DNA of 64,000 bases from Octopus vulgaris (lineage: Eukaryota). Within the stretch, counting starts at the first letter, position 1, and the number at the start of each line of letters is the position of its first letter. This document shows, one piece after another, positions 3,001 through 57,000 of this stretch. The position numbers were made by a program. The stretch lies in assembly GCA_951406725.2 (NCBI GenBank), contig OX597825.1:89280001-89344000 (forward strand). The letters run 5' to 3'.

Positions 3001-6000
3001 ATTTTGGCCGCCACTGTATATATATATATATATATATATATATATATATATATATATATATATATATATATATATATATATATATATATATATATTGAAA
3101 TGGATAAATGAATTATCTTGTTACGGATTGTTTGGAGATTTAAGTTCCTGGATTTTCCTGAAGAGAAAGCTGCAAAATGGTCTCCTTATTCAATCCGAAT
3201 TAGGGACTTTGCAGCCTTTGAAACATATGTAGAAAATAATAAAAAGGAATTTTGTTAAATCTTCGTTCAGCTCCATTTCTTCCCTCACTAAATATATATA
3301 TATATATATATATATATATATATATATATATATATATATATATATATATATATATATATGTATATTTACAGTAAAAGCCATTAAGATTCAAGTGAGTTCT
3401 GTTGAATTCACATGAATGCGGTACTTAATTAGATGCACCAGAAATCATTATGGTGTTAACCATAAGGTAATGCGGGGTGATTATAAATAAGAAAAAAGCA
3501 ACAAGAATGGATCAATATTTCGGTACAATTGTTTCGTACGAAGACAGCTTTATTAAGGCTGCAAATATTGCAGTAAATATAAGTGACACGTACTAATCAG
3601 CCGAAAAACATCTGAGTTCTCCAAACATCTACGGGGGTGATGCTACACTCCTGAAACATCAGGGATAGTTCTATAAAAATAAGATTTAGGTAACAAACGG
3701 ATTTCTAAAAGTTCTTTTAGTGTTGCACAGTCATATAACTGGTTTAAAAAAAGGGATTAAAAAAAACCTCTTAGTTTCCCAGAAAATGAAAACGAAAATG
3801 TAAATCCATCCATATTGAAGAAAGTTTGATTTCTGGAGATATGAGGAGAGGTATCATACTCACAGGAGATGCATTTATCCATAACTAGTCCATAACAAAG
3901 TGTGTTTCCTGATGTGTGGTGATACGAAACAATTGTACCGAAATATTGATCCATTCTTGTTGTTATTTTCTCATATATATAATTTTTAGCATCTGATCTG
4001 CTACCTCCCTTATGGATAGGGCATATTACCCCCTCTTTCAATTTGACTGGGAGCTTACCACTTGCAAGAAAGCTCTGAAAAAGAAGCTGTAGCGGTTTTG
4101 CAAGGGCTCGTTTGCACGTTTTGAGAAGGATCGCTGGGAATCCATCAGGTCCAGCAGCTGAGTTTGTGTCAATCTCATCTATGGCTAGTGTGATATCATC
4201 ATCTTCGATGTTGATGTACTCAATTTTTGCCTCTTTGGCCGCAGGTAAAGTGGCAAAGAATTCTTCTGGGTTGTTTACTTGCCTGTGTCCTAGAGGTGTA
4301 GTGAACACACTTTGGAACTGTTCGTTCAGTATTTCACTTATCCTCGTGGGATTTCCTGTGAGAGAACCATCTTTTTGAAGGAGAAGTCCTATTCTCTGGT
4401 GCACTGTGGCTGTCTATTTGGCAAACTTAAAGAAAGCTTTAGGGTTTGATTTTATATTTTATATTACCCAAGCTTCTTTATCTGCTCTCTCCTTTTCATG
4501 GGACTGATGTAGACTTTTCTCAGTTTCCATTAGCATTCTTTCGTGCCGATACTTCTCACCACTTTTGGTGTGCTTGCTCAGGCGGTTCGCAATCCTTGTC
4601 CGTCGTCTCATAAGAATCCTCCTTTCTCTAGGGATCCTGTTTTTGTTCTTGTGTGTGCTGGCCCTGCACACTGGTACATATTTGTCACATATGGTTTGTA
4701 TTATGGACATGAAGCGTTTGTGTTTCATGTTTATGTCCGGTGTGGAGAGACATTCAGGCCAATCCTGTTTGAGGATCTCTTTCTCAATCAACGTCCAGTT
4801 GGCTTTATGAAAGTTTAAGTTGGAGAGATGGTGGATGCTTCGTATAGGCTGTGTGTCTACGGGGGCTTTTGTTCCATACATTGACAGCTCTATTATGTTG
4901 TGATCCGAGATCATTGTCGGTATCACATTAACATTATGGATAATATCCATATTGTTTGTGAAGCATAGATCCAGTATATTATCTGCACTTGTTGGTTGCA
5001 GAACTATTTTCTCCATGAAAAAGGCATTTGTGAGATGGAGCAGGGACTCCACCTGTGCCTGCTGATGGTGTGTCATCCCTGGGAGCATCTGCCCCCCAGG
5101 CCATTCCACATTGGGTAGGTTAAAGTCACCCATGAAGAATACACTGTTGTGTTGTTCAAGGTTGGTGAGGACTTCTCCTATTTTTGTTAGGCAGTCTTCA
5201 AACATGCCTGAGTGTTTTGGGGCATCTGGTTGGCGATGTGTAGTGCATATGACGATATTCAGTTGTCTTATGTGTACAATTTGTGTTTCACATACTGAGT
5301 TTGAATATGACAGCAGGACCTGGGTGTGAGGTCATCTCGGATGTACATTGCAACTCCACCATGGCTCCTCCCTTTTCTATCTGTGCGTATGACGCATATT
5401 GCGGCATGTGTATTTCTGCATCACCTATGTCGGGTTCAAGATGCGTTTCTGTGAGTGCCATGCATATAGCTTGATTGCATGTCACAAGGTCTCTCAGGAA
5501 TGAAATTTTCTTTTTACAGTTTCCGCGCAGCAGCCCTCCTACATTCAGTAGAAATATTTTTGTGGTGTGTGTGTTGGTGTTGGTGTCTGTGGTGGCCATC
5601 CTGCATCTGTTGGAGGTGGCCTTATGTAGTGGTAGTTCCAGCTTTGTGCTTGTAGCCAGGTCAGCTGCTGAACAATTTTTTGTGCCATGCACAAAAAAGA
5701 TTGCTGTTCAGCTGCTGCCCTTCTCACATCTGGGTGAAGCTGGCCATTTGTTGGGTTACCGCGCACCACATCTGCATATCATCTTTCAGGAGTGGTCAGT
5801 GCGCTTTTTTCCCTTCTTTTGACTTTTTCTTTTTGTTCTCCACGAGGGAGGGACCCCTGTCTCGCGTCCGTGCGATTTTGGTAGGGCCTCTGATGTGCAA
5901 AGCGACAGTTCGCACCTTCGACGCCGTACCAGCAGTCCCCCTTCAGGTAGAATTTGCAGATGTTTCTTTCTTATAGTTCTTGCTGGGGTATATATATATA

Positions 6001-54000: not shown

Positions 54001-57000
54001 TTTTTTATATATATATTTTTATATATATATATATTTTTTATATATATTTTTTATTTTTTTATTTTTTTATTTTTTTATTTTTTTATTTTTTTATTTATCT
54101 ATTCTTTCATCTAACTTACCACTGACTCCTTGACCACTCCCCCAAGTATGATATTTTGCGCTATGCCTACCCCCAAAAGTCCCCCACCACCACTCCTTTG
54201 AACCTGCCTAAATGTATAAAATGCTAATACAATTCTTGTTAAATAGCTTCCTGAAGATTTCTCTTGAATGAAACAGTACTAGTCCTGTAGAAGCTCCTTC
54301 TATATAATAAAATATATATATATATATATATATATATATGTATATATGTATATATATATATGTATATATGCATATGTATATATGTATATATATATGTATA
54401 TATGTATATATATATGTATATATATATATATGTATGTATATATATGTATGTATATATATGTATGTATATATATATATATATATGTATGTATATATATGTA
54501 TGTATATATATATGTGTGTATATATATGTATGTATATATATATATGCATATATATATATATATATGTATGTATATATATGTATGTATATATATATATGTA
54601 TGTATATATATGTATGTATATATATATAAGTATGTATATATATGTATGTATATATATATATATGTATGTATATATATGTATGTATATATATATATGTATG
54701 TATATATATGTATGTATATATATATGTATGTATATATATGTGTGTATATATATATGTATGTATATATATGTGTGTATATATATGTATGTATATATATGTG
54801 TGTATATATATGTGTGTATATATATGTATGTATATATATATATAGTATGTATATATATGTATGTATATATATATATGTATGTATATATATGTATATATAT
54901 GTATATATATGTATATATATATATGTATATATATGTATATATATATATGTATATATATGTATATATATGTATATATATATGTATATATATGTATACATAT
55001 ATATGTATATATATGTATATACATATATGTATATATATGTATATATATATGTATATATATATGTATATATATGTATATATATATATGTATATATATGTAT
55101 ATATATATATGTATATATATGTATATATATATATATATATATATATATATATATATATGTATATATATATATATATATATATATATATATATATATATAT
55201 ATATATATATATATATTATTTATTTATTCAAGGGGAGTTAGAGATTGTGAATCCAATCAACAAAGGGATAGTATCTATCTAATATACTGCTGGTAGAATA
55301 CCCAATTATTAATGCACAAGTGTTGCTTATTGCGAGGTTACTGAGCGTAATAATTGGGCGGGAGTAAAAAGTTGTTTTACCCTTAATTCATACGTGAGAA
55401 AAAAATGGAGGGGATGCAGAGGTGGTATGCATCAACTGTTAGACATTATAGCGTCTATTTATTTTAAACAATTATGAGAATATATATGTGTGTGTAAAGA
55501 TTGTGTTTTACATATATAAAGTAGCAGTAATTTCTAGAATATAGAAAGAAGAACAGTTTCTTACAGTTGTTTCACACCACCCCACATGTTATCTCCATCT
55601 TTTCAGCGTACTGTAGTGATCGGTAGATAACATTGGGGTACTTGGGTGTACCTGCAGGCTTCATCAGAAAGCCTAAAAAGTTCAGAGGGCTCATTTATGT
55701 ATATACTAATATACATACACACACACGCACACACAGACGCACACACACACACACACACACACACACACACACACACACACACACACACACACACACACAC
55801 ACATATATATATATATATATATATATATACGCATTCTGTTGGGTTTTTTTTTAAACTGAACATATGAATAATTAGAATTTCATTTTCTTCTTGTATATAT
55901 ATATCACTGTGATCACCGTGACCGACCAGGCTATCAGATGTTGCTACACATCGCTGGTCACAATGCGCTTTGCATTGTTTTAGCCTTCAAGTGACACCAC
56001 CCCGCTGGCTAAGCAACAGAAGAAAGAGTGAGAGAAAGTTGTGGCGAAAGAGTACAGCAGGGATCGCCACCACCCCCTGCCGGAGTCTCGTGGAGCTTTA
56101 GGTGTTTTCGCTGGTCACTATATTGGTTTAATTGTTAAGTAAAATCCAACCTATCAGTATTTTACCATAAGAATCAAAGCTTGATTCAGAAAAGTGGTAG
56201 AGTAAAAATTGTAAAATAATAAAGGTGGCTGAAACATGTGTATGTCATAGCAGCAAATGATAACAAATGAAGTATTACAAGTGTCCCACCACAATTTTTT
56301 ACGTAATTTTTTGATAATTTAAGGTTGCTACTTATGATATCAGTTTCTTCTTGTCAAACCACTAAGTTATGTGGATGTAAATAAGCGAACAGCAGTTGTG
56401 AAGCAGTGATGAGTGAGAAACACAGAGACAAAGACACACGCAGACACTTAAATATATACATACATATATATATATACAATTGATTTCTTTCAGTTTCTGT
56501 CTACAAAATCCACTGACAGGGTTTTGTTTGTCCTGAGGCTTTAGCAGAAGACAAATGCCAAGTCACCATACCGTAGGGCTGAATCCAGGAACATGTGTTT
56601 TGGAACAAAGTTTGTTACCACACATCCACACCTGCACCTATGTATATATATGTGTGCGTATATATATGTATATATATATATATATATATGTGTGTATATA
56701 TATATGTATATATATATGTGTGTGTGTATATATATGTATATATGTATATATGTATATATGTATATGTATATATATGTATATATATGTATATATATATATA
56801 TATATATATATATATATGTGTGTGTGTGTGTGTGTGTATATATATGTATATATGTATATATGTATATATGTATATATGTATATGTATATATATGTATATA
56901 TATGTGTTCTTGAGCAAAGCACTTTATTTCACGTTGCTCCAGTTCACTCAGCTGTAGAAATGAGTTGCGACGTCACAGGTGCCAAGCTGTATCGACCTTT

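What the first reader, a model, noticed from the sequence alone, without database searches (positions are those of the whole stretch)
3365..54311. One architecture recurs six times: inverted arms, one arm with an extra tail, inserted in TA-rich DNA
Seen: the coding Penelope (arms 23684-24845/25719-26905, tail 26906-26973) and five non-coding elements share this layout: H2 (3365-3975), the foldback (9411-10525), H1 (9849-10282), H4 (19952-20548) and H5 (50719-54311). Where HHRs are present they read outward. Established: inverted, truncated pLTRs with a tail are a PLE integration signature. Inference: the same two-round priming mechanism made all six, linking the protein-less elements to PLE RT/GIY-YIG.
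Basis: partly seen in the sequence, partly recalled or inferred. Interest (0 to 1): 0.7.

Follow-up and report, generated by a model that had tools for sequence, protein, structure and literature searches.

The report
Penelope-type inverted insertions, coding and non-coding
One broken Penelope-like retrotransposon and several short protein-less repeats in this AT-rich animal sequence all show the same head-to-head double-copy layout with an extra tail on one copy, a known Penelope insertion scar, so the short repeats were probably copied by Penelope enzymes.

Summary
All six inverted pairs are at the stated coordinates. In each, one arm carries a 61-153 nt extension that the other lacks. Nine of 12 outer ends abut a (TA)n tract of 6 or more units, against about 4% expected.

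The coding element is a real Penelope-like element (PLE). It has an RT fold with telomerases among the top matches and weak but concordant C-terminal GIY-YIG signals. It is present as two 5'-truncated copies joined head-to-head.

The H1 family is the best link. It has a minimal hammerhead-like motif with compensatory changes and a 13-nt target duplication around the whole pair. A solo copy carries the tail as its native 3' end.

H2 has two degenerate hammerhead-like cores reading outward. H4, H5 and the foldback have none. No sequence similarity links any protein-less element to the PLE.

This layout is a published PLE signature. The finding is therefore new members of a known kind. The common mechanism is well supported for the PLE and H1, and only architectural for the rest.

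The parts
23684..25718 (-). PLE long copy. It is 5'-truncated, covers about aa 118-655 of relative P0002, and carries a 25-nt deletion/frameshift. Its 3' end at 23684 abuts (TA)n directly, with no tail.
25719..26905 (+). PLE short copy, inverted head-to-head. It covers about aa 412-655 in an intact frame that includes the GIY-YIG region.
26906..26973 (+). PLE tail: a 68-nt extension present on the short copy only, followed by (TA)n.
9849..10057 (-). H1 copy 1, short inverted copy: 56-nt arm (10002-10057) plus 153-nt tail (9849-10001).
10058..10285 (+). H1 copy 1, long copy without tail. It contains the hammerhead-like motif 10147-10220, which reads outward.
9836..9848 (.). Left copy of the exact 13-nt target duplication flanking the whole H1 pair. 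The right copy is at 10286-10298.
13103..13483 (-). H1 copy 2, solo and linear: body with hammerhead-like motif (13318-13391) followed by the tail, then (TA)n. It has no inverted arm.
3096..3293 (+). H1 copy 3. Positions 3096-3129 are an inverted piece of the distal tail only (27 of 34 identical). Positions 3145-3293 are the body, from 13 nt upstream of the hammerhead-like motif (3158-3231) to the tail-less end. (TA)n lies on both sides.
3365..3983 (.). H2: tail 3365-3479 and arm 3480-3538 (minus sense), unrelated interiors, arm 3923-3983 (plus sense). Degenerate hammerhead-like cores lie at 3524-3600 (-) and 3909-3937 (+), and both read outward.
9415..10525 (.). Foldback: near-complete palindrome of about 300-nt arms centred near 9700 and interrupted by H1. 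The 80-nt tail is at about 10446-10525. (TA)n lies on both sides.
9336..9365 (.). Left copy of a 30-nt direct repeat (1 mismatch) flanking the foldback outside both (TA)n tracts. The right copy is at 10587-10616. This is a candidate target duplication.
19952..20549 (.). H4: arms 19952-20136 and 20306-20488 (182 of 185), a spacer containing microsatellite, and tail 20489-20549. (TA)n lies on both sides.
50720..54311 (.). H5: tail 50720-50788, arms 50789-51140 and 53961-54311 (353 of 355), and a 2.8-kb spacer that is mostly (TATACA)n/(ATAC)n. (TA)n lies on both sides.

Best explanation
All these structures are scars of Penelope-type retrotransposition. A PLE reverse transcriptase/GIY-YIG endonuclease complex cuts both strands of an A+T-rich target, often a (TA)n tract. 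Each freed 3'-OH then primes a cDNA. The two cDNAs therefore end up head-to-head, with their 3' ends pointing outward and their variably truncated 5' ends joined in the middle.

Reverse transcription can start at two sites near the template's 3' end. A copy started at the distal site carries the tail, and a copy started at the proximal site lacks it.

The same machinery acted in cis on the PLE's own RNA and, by inference, in trans on short protein-less RNAs (H1, H2, H4, H5, foldback).

Shown here:
- the anatomy of the pairs;
- the PLE identity of the coding copy;
- the H1 target duplication;
- the tail as the native 3' end of H1.

Inferred:
- that the enzyme is a PLE RT/EN for the four families that lack a canonical hammerhead core;
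- that the outer ends of H4, H5 and the foldback are 3' ends;
- that each pair arose in a single event. This is shown only for H1, and probably for the foldback, by flanking duplications. It is likely for the PLE because of its gap-free 5'-5' junction.
For: (1) The coding element is a PLE.
- ORF 24595-25728(-) is 55% identical to aa 118-491 of relative P0002. ORF 23978-24619(-) is 44% identical to aa 498-655.
- The AlphaFold model of the RT part (pLDDT 89.7) matches RT folds with E of about 1e-8 to 1e-9. Several telomerase RTs are among the top 20.
- The C-terminal part gives Pfam GIY-YIG at E=0.011 and 0.02 in the two arms.
- GIY-YIG is hit in 3 of 51 aligned family members, best 9.8e-5.
- The nearest named Atlas clusters are GIY-YIG proteins at 0.95-0.96.
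- The best PDB fold match is T4 EndoII (E=0.28, probability 0.69).

(2) Both PLE copies contain the 3' end and point outward. Their 5' ends meet at 25718/25719 with a few nt of overlap.

(3) One tail per pair. This holds in 7 of 7 head-to-head structures in the window: the six listed plus H1 copy 3. Among the other inverted pairs closer than 6 kb that are not microsatellite matches, none is a head-to-head pair with 0 or 2 tails. Those others are a Tc1-like TIR pair, a convergent SINE pair, H1 copy 1 against H1 copy 2, and a 40-nt palindrome.

(4) H1.
- The solo copy 13103-13483 has body plus tail plus (TA)n, so the tail belongs to the template.
- An exact 13-nt duplication flanks the whole inverted pair.
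- The hammerhead-like core is intact in 3 of 3 copies. 93% of cells are paired, against 54% or less in slid controls. There are 4 compensatory pairs against 0 in slid controls.
- Its long helix II, short helix I and palindromic helix III match the PLE 'min-HHR' description (PMC4209133 passages).

(5) In the 3 clearly asymmetric cases (PLE, H1 copy 1, H1 copy 3) the tailed copy is the shorter one.

(6) Nine of 12 outer ends abut (TA)>=6 tracts.

(7) Published biochemistry and genomics describe this layout (PMC11167929 Main text; PMC8557442; PMC3846280). The last also reports trans-mobilisation of unrelated non-coding sequence by pLTRs.

(8) All six tail regions fold somewhat better than shuffles (z from -1.06 to -3.04). 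This is suggestive only.
Against: - No sequence similarity links the 3' ends or tails of H1, H2, H4, H5 or the foldback to the PLE or to each other. The best z is 2.4, and 6 of 200 shuffles score as high. Non-autonomous partners usually share a 3' module with their driver.
- The tails of H2, H4, H5 and the foldback occur once in the window. They could be host DNA.
- Rfam calls no hammerhead anywhere. H4, H5 and the foldback have no hammerhead-like core even with one substitution allowed. The two H2 cores each carry a substitution at a conserved core position.
- The tails are 61-153 nt, not the published 30-40 bp.
- The PLE copies have no pLTR or hammerhead in the window.
- (TA)n flanks are shared with a Tc1-like transposon and with SINE and LINE 3' ends here. 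They therefore do not single out PLE.
- H4, H5 and the foldback have equal-length arms, as TIR or foldback elements do.
- H2's two sides share only 61 nt.
- GIY-YIG support is below Pfam's curated cut-off.
Confidence: 0.62

Rival explanations
1. H4, H5, the foldback and perhaps H2 are non-autonomous DNA transposons (MITE- or foldback-type) with terminal inverted repeats. They inserted at TA sites, and the 'tails' are host DNA lying between two (TA)n tracts. Only the coding PLE and H1 would be PLE products.
For: - The arms are of equal length in H4 (185 and 183 nt), H5 (352 and 351 nt) and the foldback.
- These elements have no hammerhead-like motif.
- They share no sequence with the PLE.
- Their tails are single-copy in the window.
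- A bona fide Tc1-like transposon at 1891-3016 also sits in (TA)n.
- (TA)n tracts are dense here, at 8.8% of the window.
Against: - In 5 of 5 such elements the unit bounded by (TA)n is 'arm...arm plus tail', not the arm pair. That would require insertion exactly at the edge of a (TA)n tract each time.
- Three tails are 61-69 nt.
- The Tc1-like control has symmetric CAGT-type ends and no tail.
- The foldback's candidate target duplication is 30-37 nt, far longer than DNA-transposon duplications as I recall them.
- The termini do not resemble the Tc1-like ends.
Confidence: 0.17
2. The protein-less elements are SINE-like retroposons mobilised by the window's LINEs, which carry (TA)n 3' tails. The (TA)n at both outer ends would then be 3' tails rather than targets, and the inverted pairs would be independent insertions or twin-priming products.
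For: - SINE copies end in (TA)n (8256-8573 +, 9177-9326 -).
- Two LINE 3' ends converge on a 325-nt (TA)n tract at 21521-21845.
- In the foldback the (TA)n tracts lie inside the candidate target duplication, as templated tails would.
Against: - LINE twin priming, as I recall it, inverts an upstream segment. It does not duplicate the 3' end. Here both arms carry the same 3' end.
- This model does not predict a one-sided 61-153-nt extension placed between arm and (TA)n.
- H1 copy 1 has no (TA)n at either end, yet it has the full architecture and a 13-nt duplication.
- H1 and H2 carry hammerhead-like motifs, which the literature ties to PLEs.
- No 3' similarity to the LINE or SINE families appeared in self-BLAST.
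Confidence: 0.13
3. The near-identical inversions (PLE, H5) are assembly artefacts, such as palindromic chimeric long reads.
For: The PLE arms include 928 nt of 100% complementarity. The H5 arms are 353 of 355 identical. The literature notes that PLE inversions trouble assemblies (PMC8557442).
Against: - The structures are not simple palindromes. The PLE has an 873-nt single-copy stretch between its arms, a 25-nt indel between the arms and a one-sided tail.
- Older pairs have diverged (H2 56 of 61, foldback 144 of 153).
- H1 has a target duplication.
Confidence: 0.04

Closest known systems
Canonical EN+ Penelope-like elements (C-terminal GIY-YIG), as described in PMC8557442, PMC3846280 and PMC11167929
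   Same: - RT followed by a Cys-rich linker and a GIY-YIG-like domain.
- 5' truncation.
- An inverted 5'-truncated copy joined head-to-head.
- An extension on only one end.
- Insertion at A+T-rich or (TA)n DNA.
- Microhomology at the inverted junction.
   Different: - No direct pLTR, no hammerhead and no full-length ORF are present in this copy.
- The tail is 68 nt, against 30-40 bp in the passages I read.
- The clade (Neptune, Nematis, Penelope/Poseidon and others) was not determined.
Metazoan non-LTR retrozymes and PLE 'min-HHR' repeats (PMC4209133; bioRxiv 10.64898/2026.07.22.740005)
   Same: - H1 is short and protein-less.
- It carries a type-I-like hammerhead core with a long helix II, a short helix I and a palindromic helix III.
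- Dual motifs on opposite strands 100-700 bp apart are mentioned in PMC4209133.
   Different: - H1 copies here are dispersed single units or inverted pairs, not tandem arrays.
- Rfam models do not score them.
- H4, H5 and the foldback have no hammerhead at all.
- H2's cores are substituted at conserved positions.
pLTR-mediated trans-mobilisation in Adineta vaga (PMC3846280) and non-autonomous Chlamys elements (PMC8557442)
   Same: Unrelated, partly non-coding sequence is inserted with PLE-type repeats and target duplications.
   Different: Those cases keep the pLTR or 3' end of a recognisable autonomous PLE. Here no shared module with the PLE was found.
TIR DNA transposons and MITEs. In-window control: the Tc1-like element at 1891-3016.
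   Same: Inverted terminal arms and TA-rich insertion sites.
   Different: - The control has symmetric ends that abut (TA)n directly on both sides, with no tail.
- The six elements are asymmetric.
- H1 also exists as a solo copy without any inverted arm.

Membership tests
Penelope-like element (EN+; coding copy 23684-26973) | Reverse transcriptase domain of the telomerase-related kind | tested here: met
   The model of the 378-aa ORF has pLDDT 89.7. Foldseek against PDB gives 378 matches at E<=0.001. The top ones are DRT2, retron and telomerase RTs at 2.6e-9 to 1e-7. Pfam RVT_1 did not hit the window ORF and hit 1 of 51 relatives.
Penelope-like element (EN+; coding copy 23684-26973) | GIY-YIG endonuclease fused C-terminally to the RT | tested here: met
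   The lines of evidence are weak but concordant.
- Pfam GIY-YIG at E=0.011 and 0.02, below the curated cut-off.
- 3 of 51 relatives hit, best 9.8e-5.
- Atlas named neighbours are GIY-YIG at 0.95-0.96.
- The best PDB fold match is T4 EndoII at E=0.28. I recall this enzyme as a GIY-YIG nuclease.
- The domain order RT then EN is shown.
Penelope-like element (EN+; coding copy 23684-26973) | Pseudo-LTRs (partial tandem) carrying a hammerhead ribozyme | tested here: not met
   There is no direct repeat of the element. There is no hammerhead in 23500-27000 by Rfam at E<=10 or by motif scans. Both copies are 5'-truncated, so absence here does not speak for the family's full-length form.
Penelope-like element (EN+; coding copy 23684-26973) | Inverted 5'-truncated copy head-to-head, with a tail on one end only | tested here: met
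Non-autonomous PLE-dependent retroposon (H1, H2, H4, H5, foldback) | PLE-type insertion scar (outward 3' ends, one tail, variable target duplication) | tested here: met
   The layout is met in all five. A target duplication is shown for H1 (13 nt) and is a candidate for the foldback (30-37 nt). In the others it cannot be read because they lie in (TA)n.
Non-autonomous PLE-dependent retroposon (H1, H2, H4, H5, foldback) | A 3' module or pLTR shared with an autonomous PLE | tested here: not met
   There is no significant similarity to the only PLE in the window. Other PLE families of the genome could not be examined.
Non-autonomous PLE-dependent retroposon (H1, H2, H4, H5, foldback) | The tail is part of the mobile unit | tested here: inconclusive
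   This is met for H1: the solo copy carries the tail at 94% identity. It cannot be tested for H2, H4, H5 and the foldback, which are single loci in the window.
Hammerhead ribozyme (type I, PLE min-HHR) | Conserved core CUGANGA...GAAA...UH with helices I-III | tested here: inconclusive
   - H1: the core is intact in 3 of 3 copies. Helices II and III are supported by 4 compensatory pairs, against 0 in slid controls.
- There is no Rfam match at E<=10, and helix I is only 3 bp.
- H2: each core has one substitution.
- Self-cleavage was not tested.
Metazoan non-LTR retrozyme | Tandem arrays of hammerhead-bearing monomers | tested here: not met
   No tandem H1 or H2 copies appear in the window.
TIR DNA transposon / MITE | Symmetric fixed-length terminal inverted repeats with a constant short target duplication | tested here: not met
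   The extension is one-sided in 6 of 6. The arms are unequal in the PLE, H1 and probably H2. A solo H1 copy has no arm. The duplications are 13 nt and 30-37 nt. For H4, H5 and the foldback the arms are equal, so only the tail argues against membership.
LINE twin-priming inversion | The inverted 5' segment is contiguous with, and not a duplicate of, the 3' segment | tested here: not met
   Both arms duplicate the same 3'-terminal sequence in all pairs. The definition of twin priming is recalled and was not read here.

The most novel reading that the evidence does not exclude
The strict rule of exactly one tail per inverted pair (7 of 7 here, with the tailed copy the shorter in 3 of 3 asymmetric cases) suggests how a PLE complex works. 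A dimeric complex may copy a single RNA molecule from both cleaved target strands at once, with one subunit starting at the distal site and the other at the proximal site. A pair then cannot have 0 or 2 tails.

The same complex may accept unrelated, hammerhead-less RNAs (H4, H5, foldback). That would define a class of 'PLE-SINEs' recognised by structure rather than by sequence.

A corollary comes from the foldback, whose candidate 30-37-nt target duplication lies outside both (TA)n tracts. Some junctional (TA)n may be laid down or seeded during integration rather than being the pre-existing target.
Probability: 0.2. Interest if true: 0.7.

Novelty: new member of a known kind. Interest (0 to 1): 0.45.

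Why it matters
PLE integration is still poorly understood, and the first in-vitro system dates from 2024 (PMC11167929). A single 64-kb window holds one autonomous-derived copy and at least five protein-less families with the same scar, including a solo and two inverted H1 insertions. If this pattern is general in the genome, it offers a natural dataset for several questions:
- whether tail and tail-less starts are coupled within one event;
- how long tails can be;
- whether PLE enzymes mobilise RNAs that lack both a hammerhead and a shared 3' module.

It is also a practical warning for annotation. Such elements look like MITEs or foldback transposons on a dot plot.

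Tried and rejected
- Rfam at gathering score on the whole window gave 0 hits.
- The E-value mode on the whole window was swamped by microsatellite look-alikes of mir-297 and similar families and was of no use.
- Targeted Rfam runs found no hammerhead.
- A single-sequence RNA fold of the H1 motif was no better than shuffles (z -0.16). The evidence for the motif therefore rests on the core and on covariation.
- I looked for a coding start of the PLE ORF in its 3' terminal region and tail, as in the anole PLE. 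tblastn with 120 relatives found nothing convincing (best E 0.035).
- I looked for similarity between each tail and its own element interior. There was none.
- I looked for similarity among the six 3' ends. There was none.
- A profile search of PDB sequences gave one irrelevant hit at E=0.38.
- Pfam on 5 relatives gave nothing.
- ARAGORN found no tRNA, so the tRNA-like SINE heads are my own reading.
- Organism: the best named relative of the neighbouring LINE RT is from the cephalopod Argonauta hians (61% identity). The PLE's best named relatives are echinoderm proteins (about 46%). This does not settle the taxon, and I did not pursue it.
- The adjacent RT at 21968-23503(-) was considered as part of the PLE and rejected. 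It is 42-43% identical to the window's LINE RTs and matches RVT_1 at 2.5e-31.
- Not checked: genome-wide copies could not be collected. That scan was not used.
- Not checked: I opened no supplementary files, and bioRxiv supplements are closed. Supplementary figures of PMC11167929 and PMC8557442 may show tail lengths and pair statistics that bear on the novelty claim.

Full report
**What is there**

The window is A+T-rich, has no N run and is full of (TA)n and related microsatellites. (TA)>=6 tracts cover 8.8% of it after merging.

Arm-only realignment gives these figures:
- PLE: 1 substitution plus one 25-nt indel over about 1.19 kb
- H5: 353 of 355
- H4: 182 of 185
- H2: 56 of 61
- H1: 56 of 56
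- Foldback outer arms: 144 of 153

After removing H1 and one copy of its target duplication, the foldback is a nearly complete palindrome from about 9411 to 10440.

In each pair one arm is followed by a unique extension before the flanking (TA)n, whereas the other arm abuts the flank directly:
- PLE: 68 nt
- H5: 69 nt
- H4: 61 nt
- Foldback: about 80 nt
- H2: 115 nt
- H1: 153 nt

Nine of 12 outer boundaries abut a (TA)>=6 tract, where 3.6-4.0% of positions would (binomial 1.6e-11). The exceptions are both ends of H1 and the right end of H2.

**The coding element**

ORF 24595-25728(-) aligns to residues 118-491 of a 655-aa relative (55% identity). ORF 23978-24619(-) aligns to residues 498-655 (44%).

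tblastn shows a single PLE locus in the window. The minus copy covers about aa 118-655 and the plus copy about aa 412-655. Both copies therefore contain the 3' end, both are 5'-truncated, and their 5' ends meet at 25718/25719 with a few nucleotides of overlap. The long copy has a 25-nt deletion that shifts the frame.

Pfam barely recognises the family:
- GIY-YIG at E=0.011 and 0.02 in the two arms
- GIY-YIG in 3 of 51 relatives and RVT_1 in 1 of 51
- nothing for 5 relatives

I therefore tested folds. The RT part (pLDDT 89.7) matches reverse transcriptases at E of about 1e-8 to 1e-9, with several telomerase RTs among the top 20. The C-terminal part (pLDDT 83.7) has T4 EndoII as its best PDB match, though only at E=0.28. 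Its nearest named Atlas clusters are GIY-YIG proteins (0.95-0.96).

Together with the domain order and a Cys-rich linker before the GIY-YIG-like core, this is an EN+ Penelope-like element. I did not assign a clade. No hammerhead and no direct pLTR are present in these truncated copies.

The RT at 21968-23503(-) next door is a LINE and not part of the PLE.

**H1, the informative family**

Three copies exist.
- Copy 1 (9849-10285) is the inverted pair nested in the foldback.
- Copy 2 (13103-13483, minus strand) is a plain linear unit. Its body with the hammerhead-like motif is followed by the same 150-nt 'tail' (94% identical) and then (TA)n, with no inverted arm. The tail is therefore the native 3' end of the template, not an add-on.
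- Copy 3 (3096-3293) consists of an inverted piece of the distal tail only (27 of 34 identical). This is joined to a plus-strand body that runs from 13 nt upstream of the motif to the tail-less end.

In both inverted H1 structures the copy that starts at the distal end carries the tail and is the shorter one. The other copy starts at the proximal site and lacks the tail. The PLE pair behaves in the same way.

Copy 1 as a whole is flanked by an exact 13-nt duplication, so the pair arose in one insertion event.

**Hammerheads**

Rfam finds none. A single-sequence fold of the H1 motif is unremarkable.

A core scan finds CUGAAGA...GAAA...palindrome...UA in all three H1 copies. On the three-copy alignment:
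- 93% of cells pair, against 54% or less when partners are slid;
- 4 pairs change on both sides, against 0 in all slid controls.

Only three sequences are available, so this is modest evidence. The long helix II, short helix I and palindromic helix III match the 'min-HHR' of PLEs (PMC4209133, passages).

Allowing one core substitution gives 6 hits in the window against a mean of 0.5 and a maximum of 2 in 40 shuffles:
- the three H1 motifs;
- two in H2 (3909-3937 plus strand, 3524-3600 minus strand);
- one at 49295-49325.

Both H2 motifs read outward and share the same 3' half. Their 5' halves and the rest of the two sides are unrelated. H2 is therefore two different sequences sharing a 61-nt 3' module, not a duplicated template. 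H4, H5 and the foldback have no such motif.

**Links tested and not found**

The terminal 200 nt plus tail of the six elements show no significant pairwise similarity. The best pair is H5 against the foldback (z 2.4, with 6 of 200 shuffles as high). The tails do not resemble their own element interiors. Except for H1, they occur only once in the window. The connection of H2, H4, H5 and the foldback to PLE enzymes therefore rests on architecture alone.

**Controls inside the window**

A Tc1-like DNA transposon (1891-3016) has symmetric ends. Both ends abut (TA)n directly, and there is no tail.

A SINE pair (8256-8573 plus, 9177-9326 minus) is convergent, with (TA)n at the 3' ends. LINE 3' ends also run into (TA)n.

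(TA)n flanks are therefore general here. The one-sided tail is what sets the six apart. Besides these two controls, one search lists only H1 copy 1 against H1 copy 2 and a 40-nt palindrome as non-microsatellite inverted pairs closer than 6 kb, and neither is a head-to-head pair. All seven head-to-head structures (the six plus H1 copy 3) have exactly one tail.

**Mechanism**

The published picture fits.
- PLE insertions often carry an inverted 5'-truncated copy and a 30-40 bp tail at one end (PMC8557442; PMC3846280).
- The purified anole PLE protein cleaves and extends both strands of A+T-rich DNA. It starts reverse transcription at two internal sites that bracket the tail (PMC11167929, Main text).

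I infer dual target-primed reverse transcription, with one start at the distal site and one at the proximal site, followed by joining of the two cDNA ends. When short templates are copied to their 5' end, the arms come out equal (H4, H5, foldback). Long templates give unequal arms (PLE).

The tail regions fold slightly better than shuffles in all six (z -1.06 to -3.04). This is only suggestive of a structured start region.

**An oddity**

The foldback is flanked by a 30-nt direct repeat with 1 mismatch, or 37-40 nt with more mismatches. It occurs only twice in the window and lies outside both (TA)n tracts. If it is the target duplication, at least one of those tracts was not the target.

**Novelty**

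Non-autonomous PLE derivatives are already in print:
- retrozymes (bioRxiv 10.64898/2026.07.22.740005, abstract and Discussion);
- non-autonomous Chlamys elements;
- pLTR-mediated capture.

A curation guide mentions inverted pLTRs and 3' extensions (PMC8969392).

My two full-text searches listed no paper on hammerhead-less protein-less families bearing the PLE scar, or on tails of 60-150 nt. That is a limited search, and I saw no supplements.

I rate this as new members of a known kind. It has a modest chance of yielding a mechanistic rule, one tail per pair, once genome-wide counts are made.

Noticed in passing
window 1891-3016: A Tc1/mariner-like DNA transposon with 240-nt inverted terminal repeats (90% identical). 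Its ends begin CAGT and sit in (TA)n on both sides. Weak HTH_Tnp_Tc3_2 matches lie in broken ORFs at 2152-2641(-).
   Followed up: partly
window 8256-8573 (+), 9177-9326 (-), 55894-56112 (-), about 12850-12992 (-): A SINE-like family with a tRNA-like head (box-B-like GGTTTCGATTCC, by my reading; ARAGORN calls no tRNA) and (TA)n at the 3' end. The copy at 9177-9326 is 5'-truncated and has an internal deletion.
   Followed up: partly
window 3757-5707 (-), 27457-29796 (+), 59007-61455 (-), 21968-23503 (-), 57102-58133 (+): At least two LINE families with APE-type endonuclease plus RT. The best named relative of the 21968-23503 RT is from Argonauta hians (61% identity). Two LINE 3' ends converge on a 325-nt (TA)n tract at 21521-21845.
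   Followed up: partly
window 9336-9365 and 10587-10616: A 30-nt direct repeat (1 mismatch) flanks the foldback outside both of its (TA)n tracts, and the window has only these two copies. If it is a target duplication, it is unusually long, and the (TA)n tracts lie inside it.
   Followed up: partly
window 49295-49325 (+): An isolated hammerhead-like match with a U3 variant core (TTGATGA...GAAA CATG TC) lying outside any of the listed elements. It may be chance, since the relaxed scan expects about 0.5 hits per window.
   Followed up: no
window 24590-24620: The long PLE copy lacks 25 nt that are present in the short copy. The deletion is bordered by a GGT microhomology and shifts the reading frame. 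The arms otherwise differ by a single substitution, so the pair is very young or homogenised.
   Followed up: yes
window 51148-53786: A 2.6-kb compound (TATACA)n/(ATAC)n microsatellite fills the space between the two H5 arms. Similar arrays lie at 54301-55216 and 60575-61400.
   Followed up: no
window 19915-19951, 20133-20166, 20612-20644: The variant motif ATGTATAA(TA)n occurs three times around H4: in the left flank, between the left arm and the spacer, and in the right flank. This may mean H4 arose by two insertions into one microsatellite, or that the target was copied more than once.
   Followed up: no
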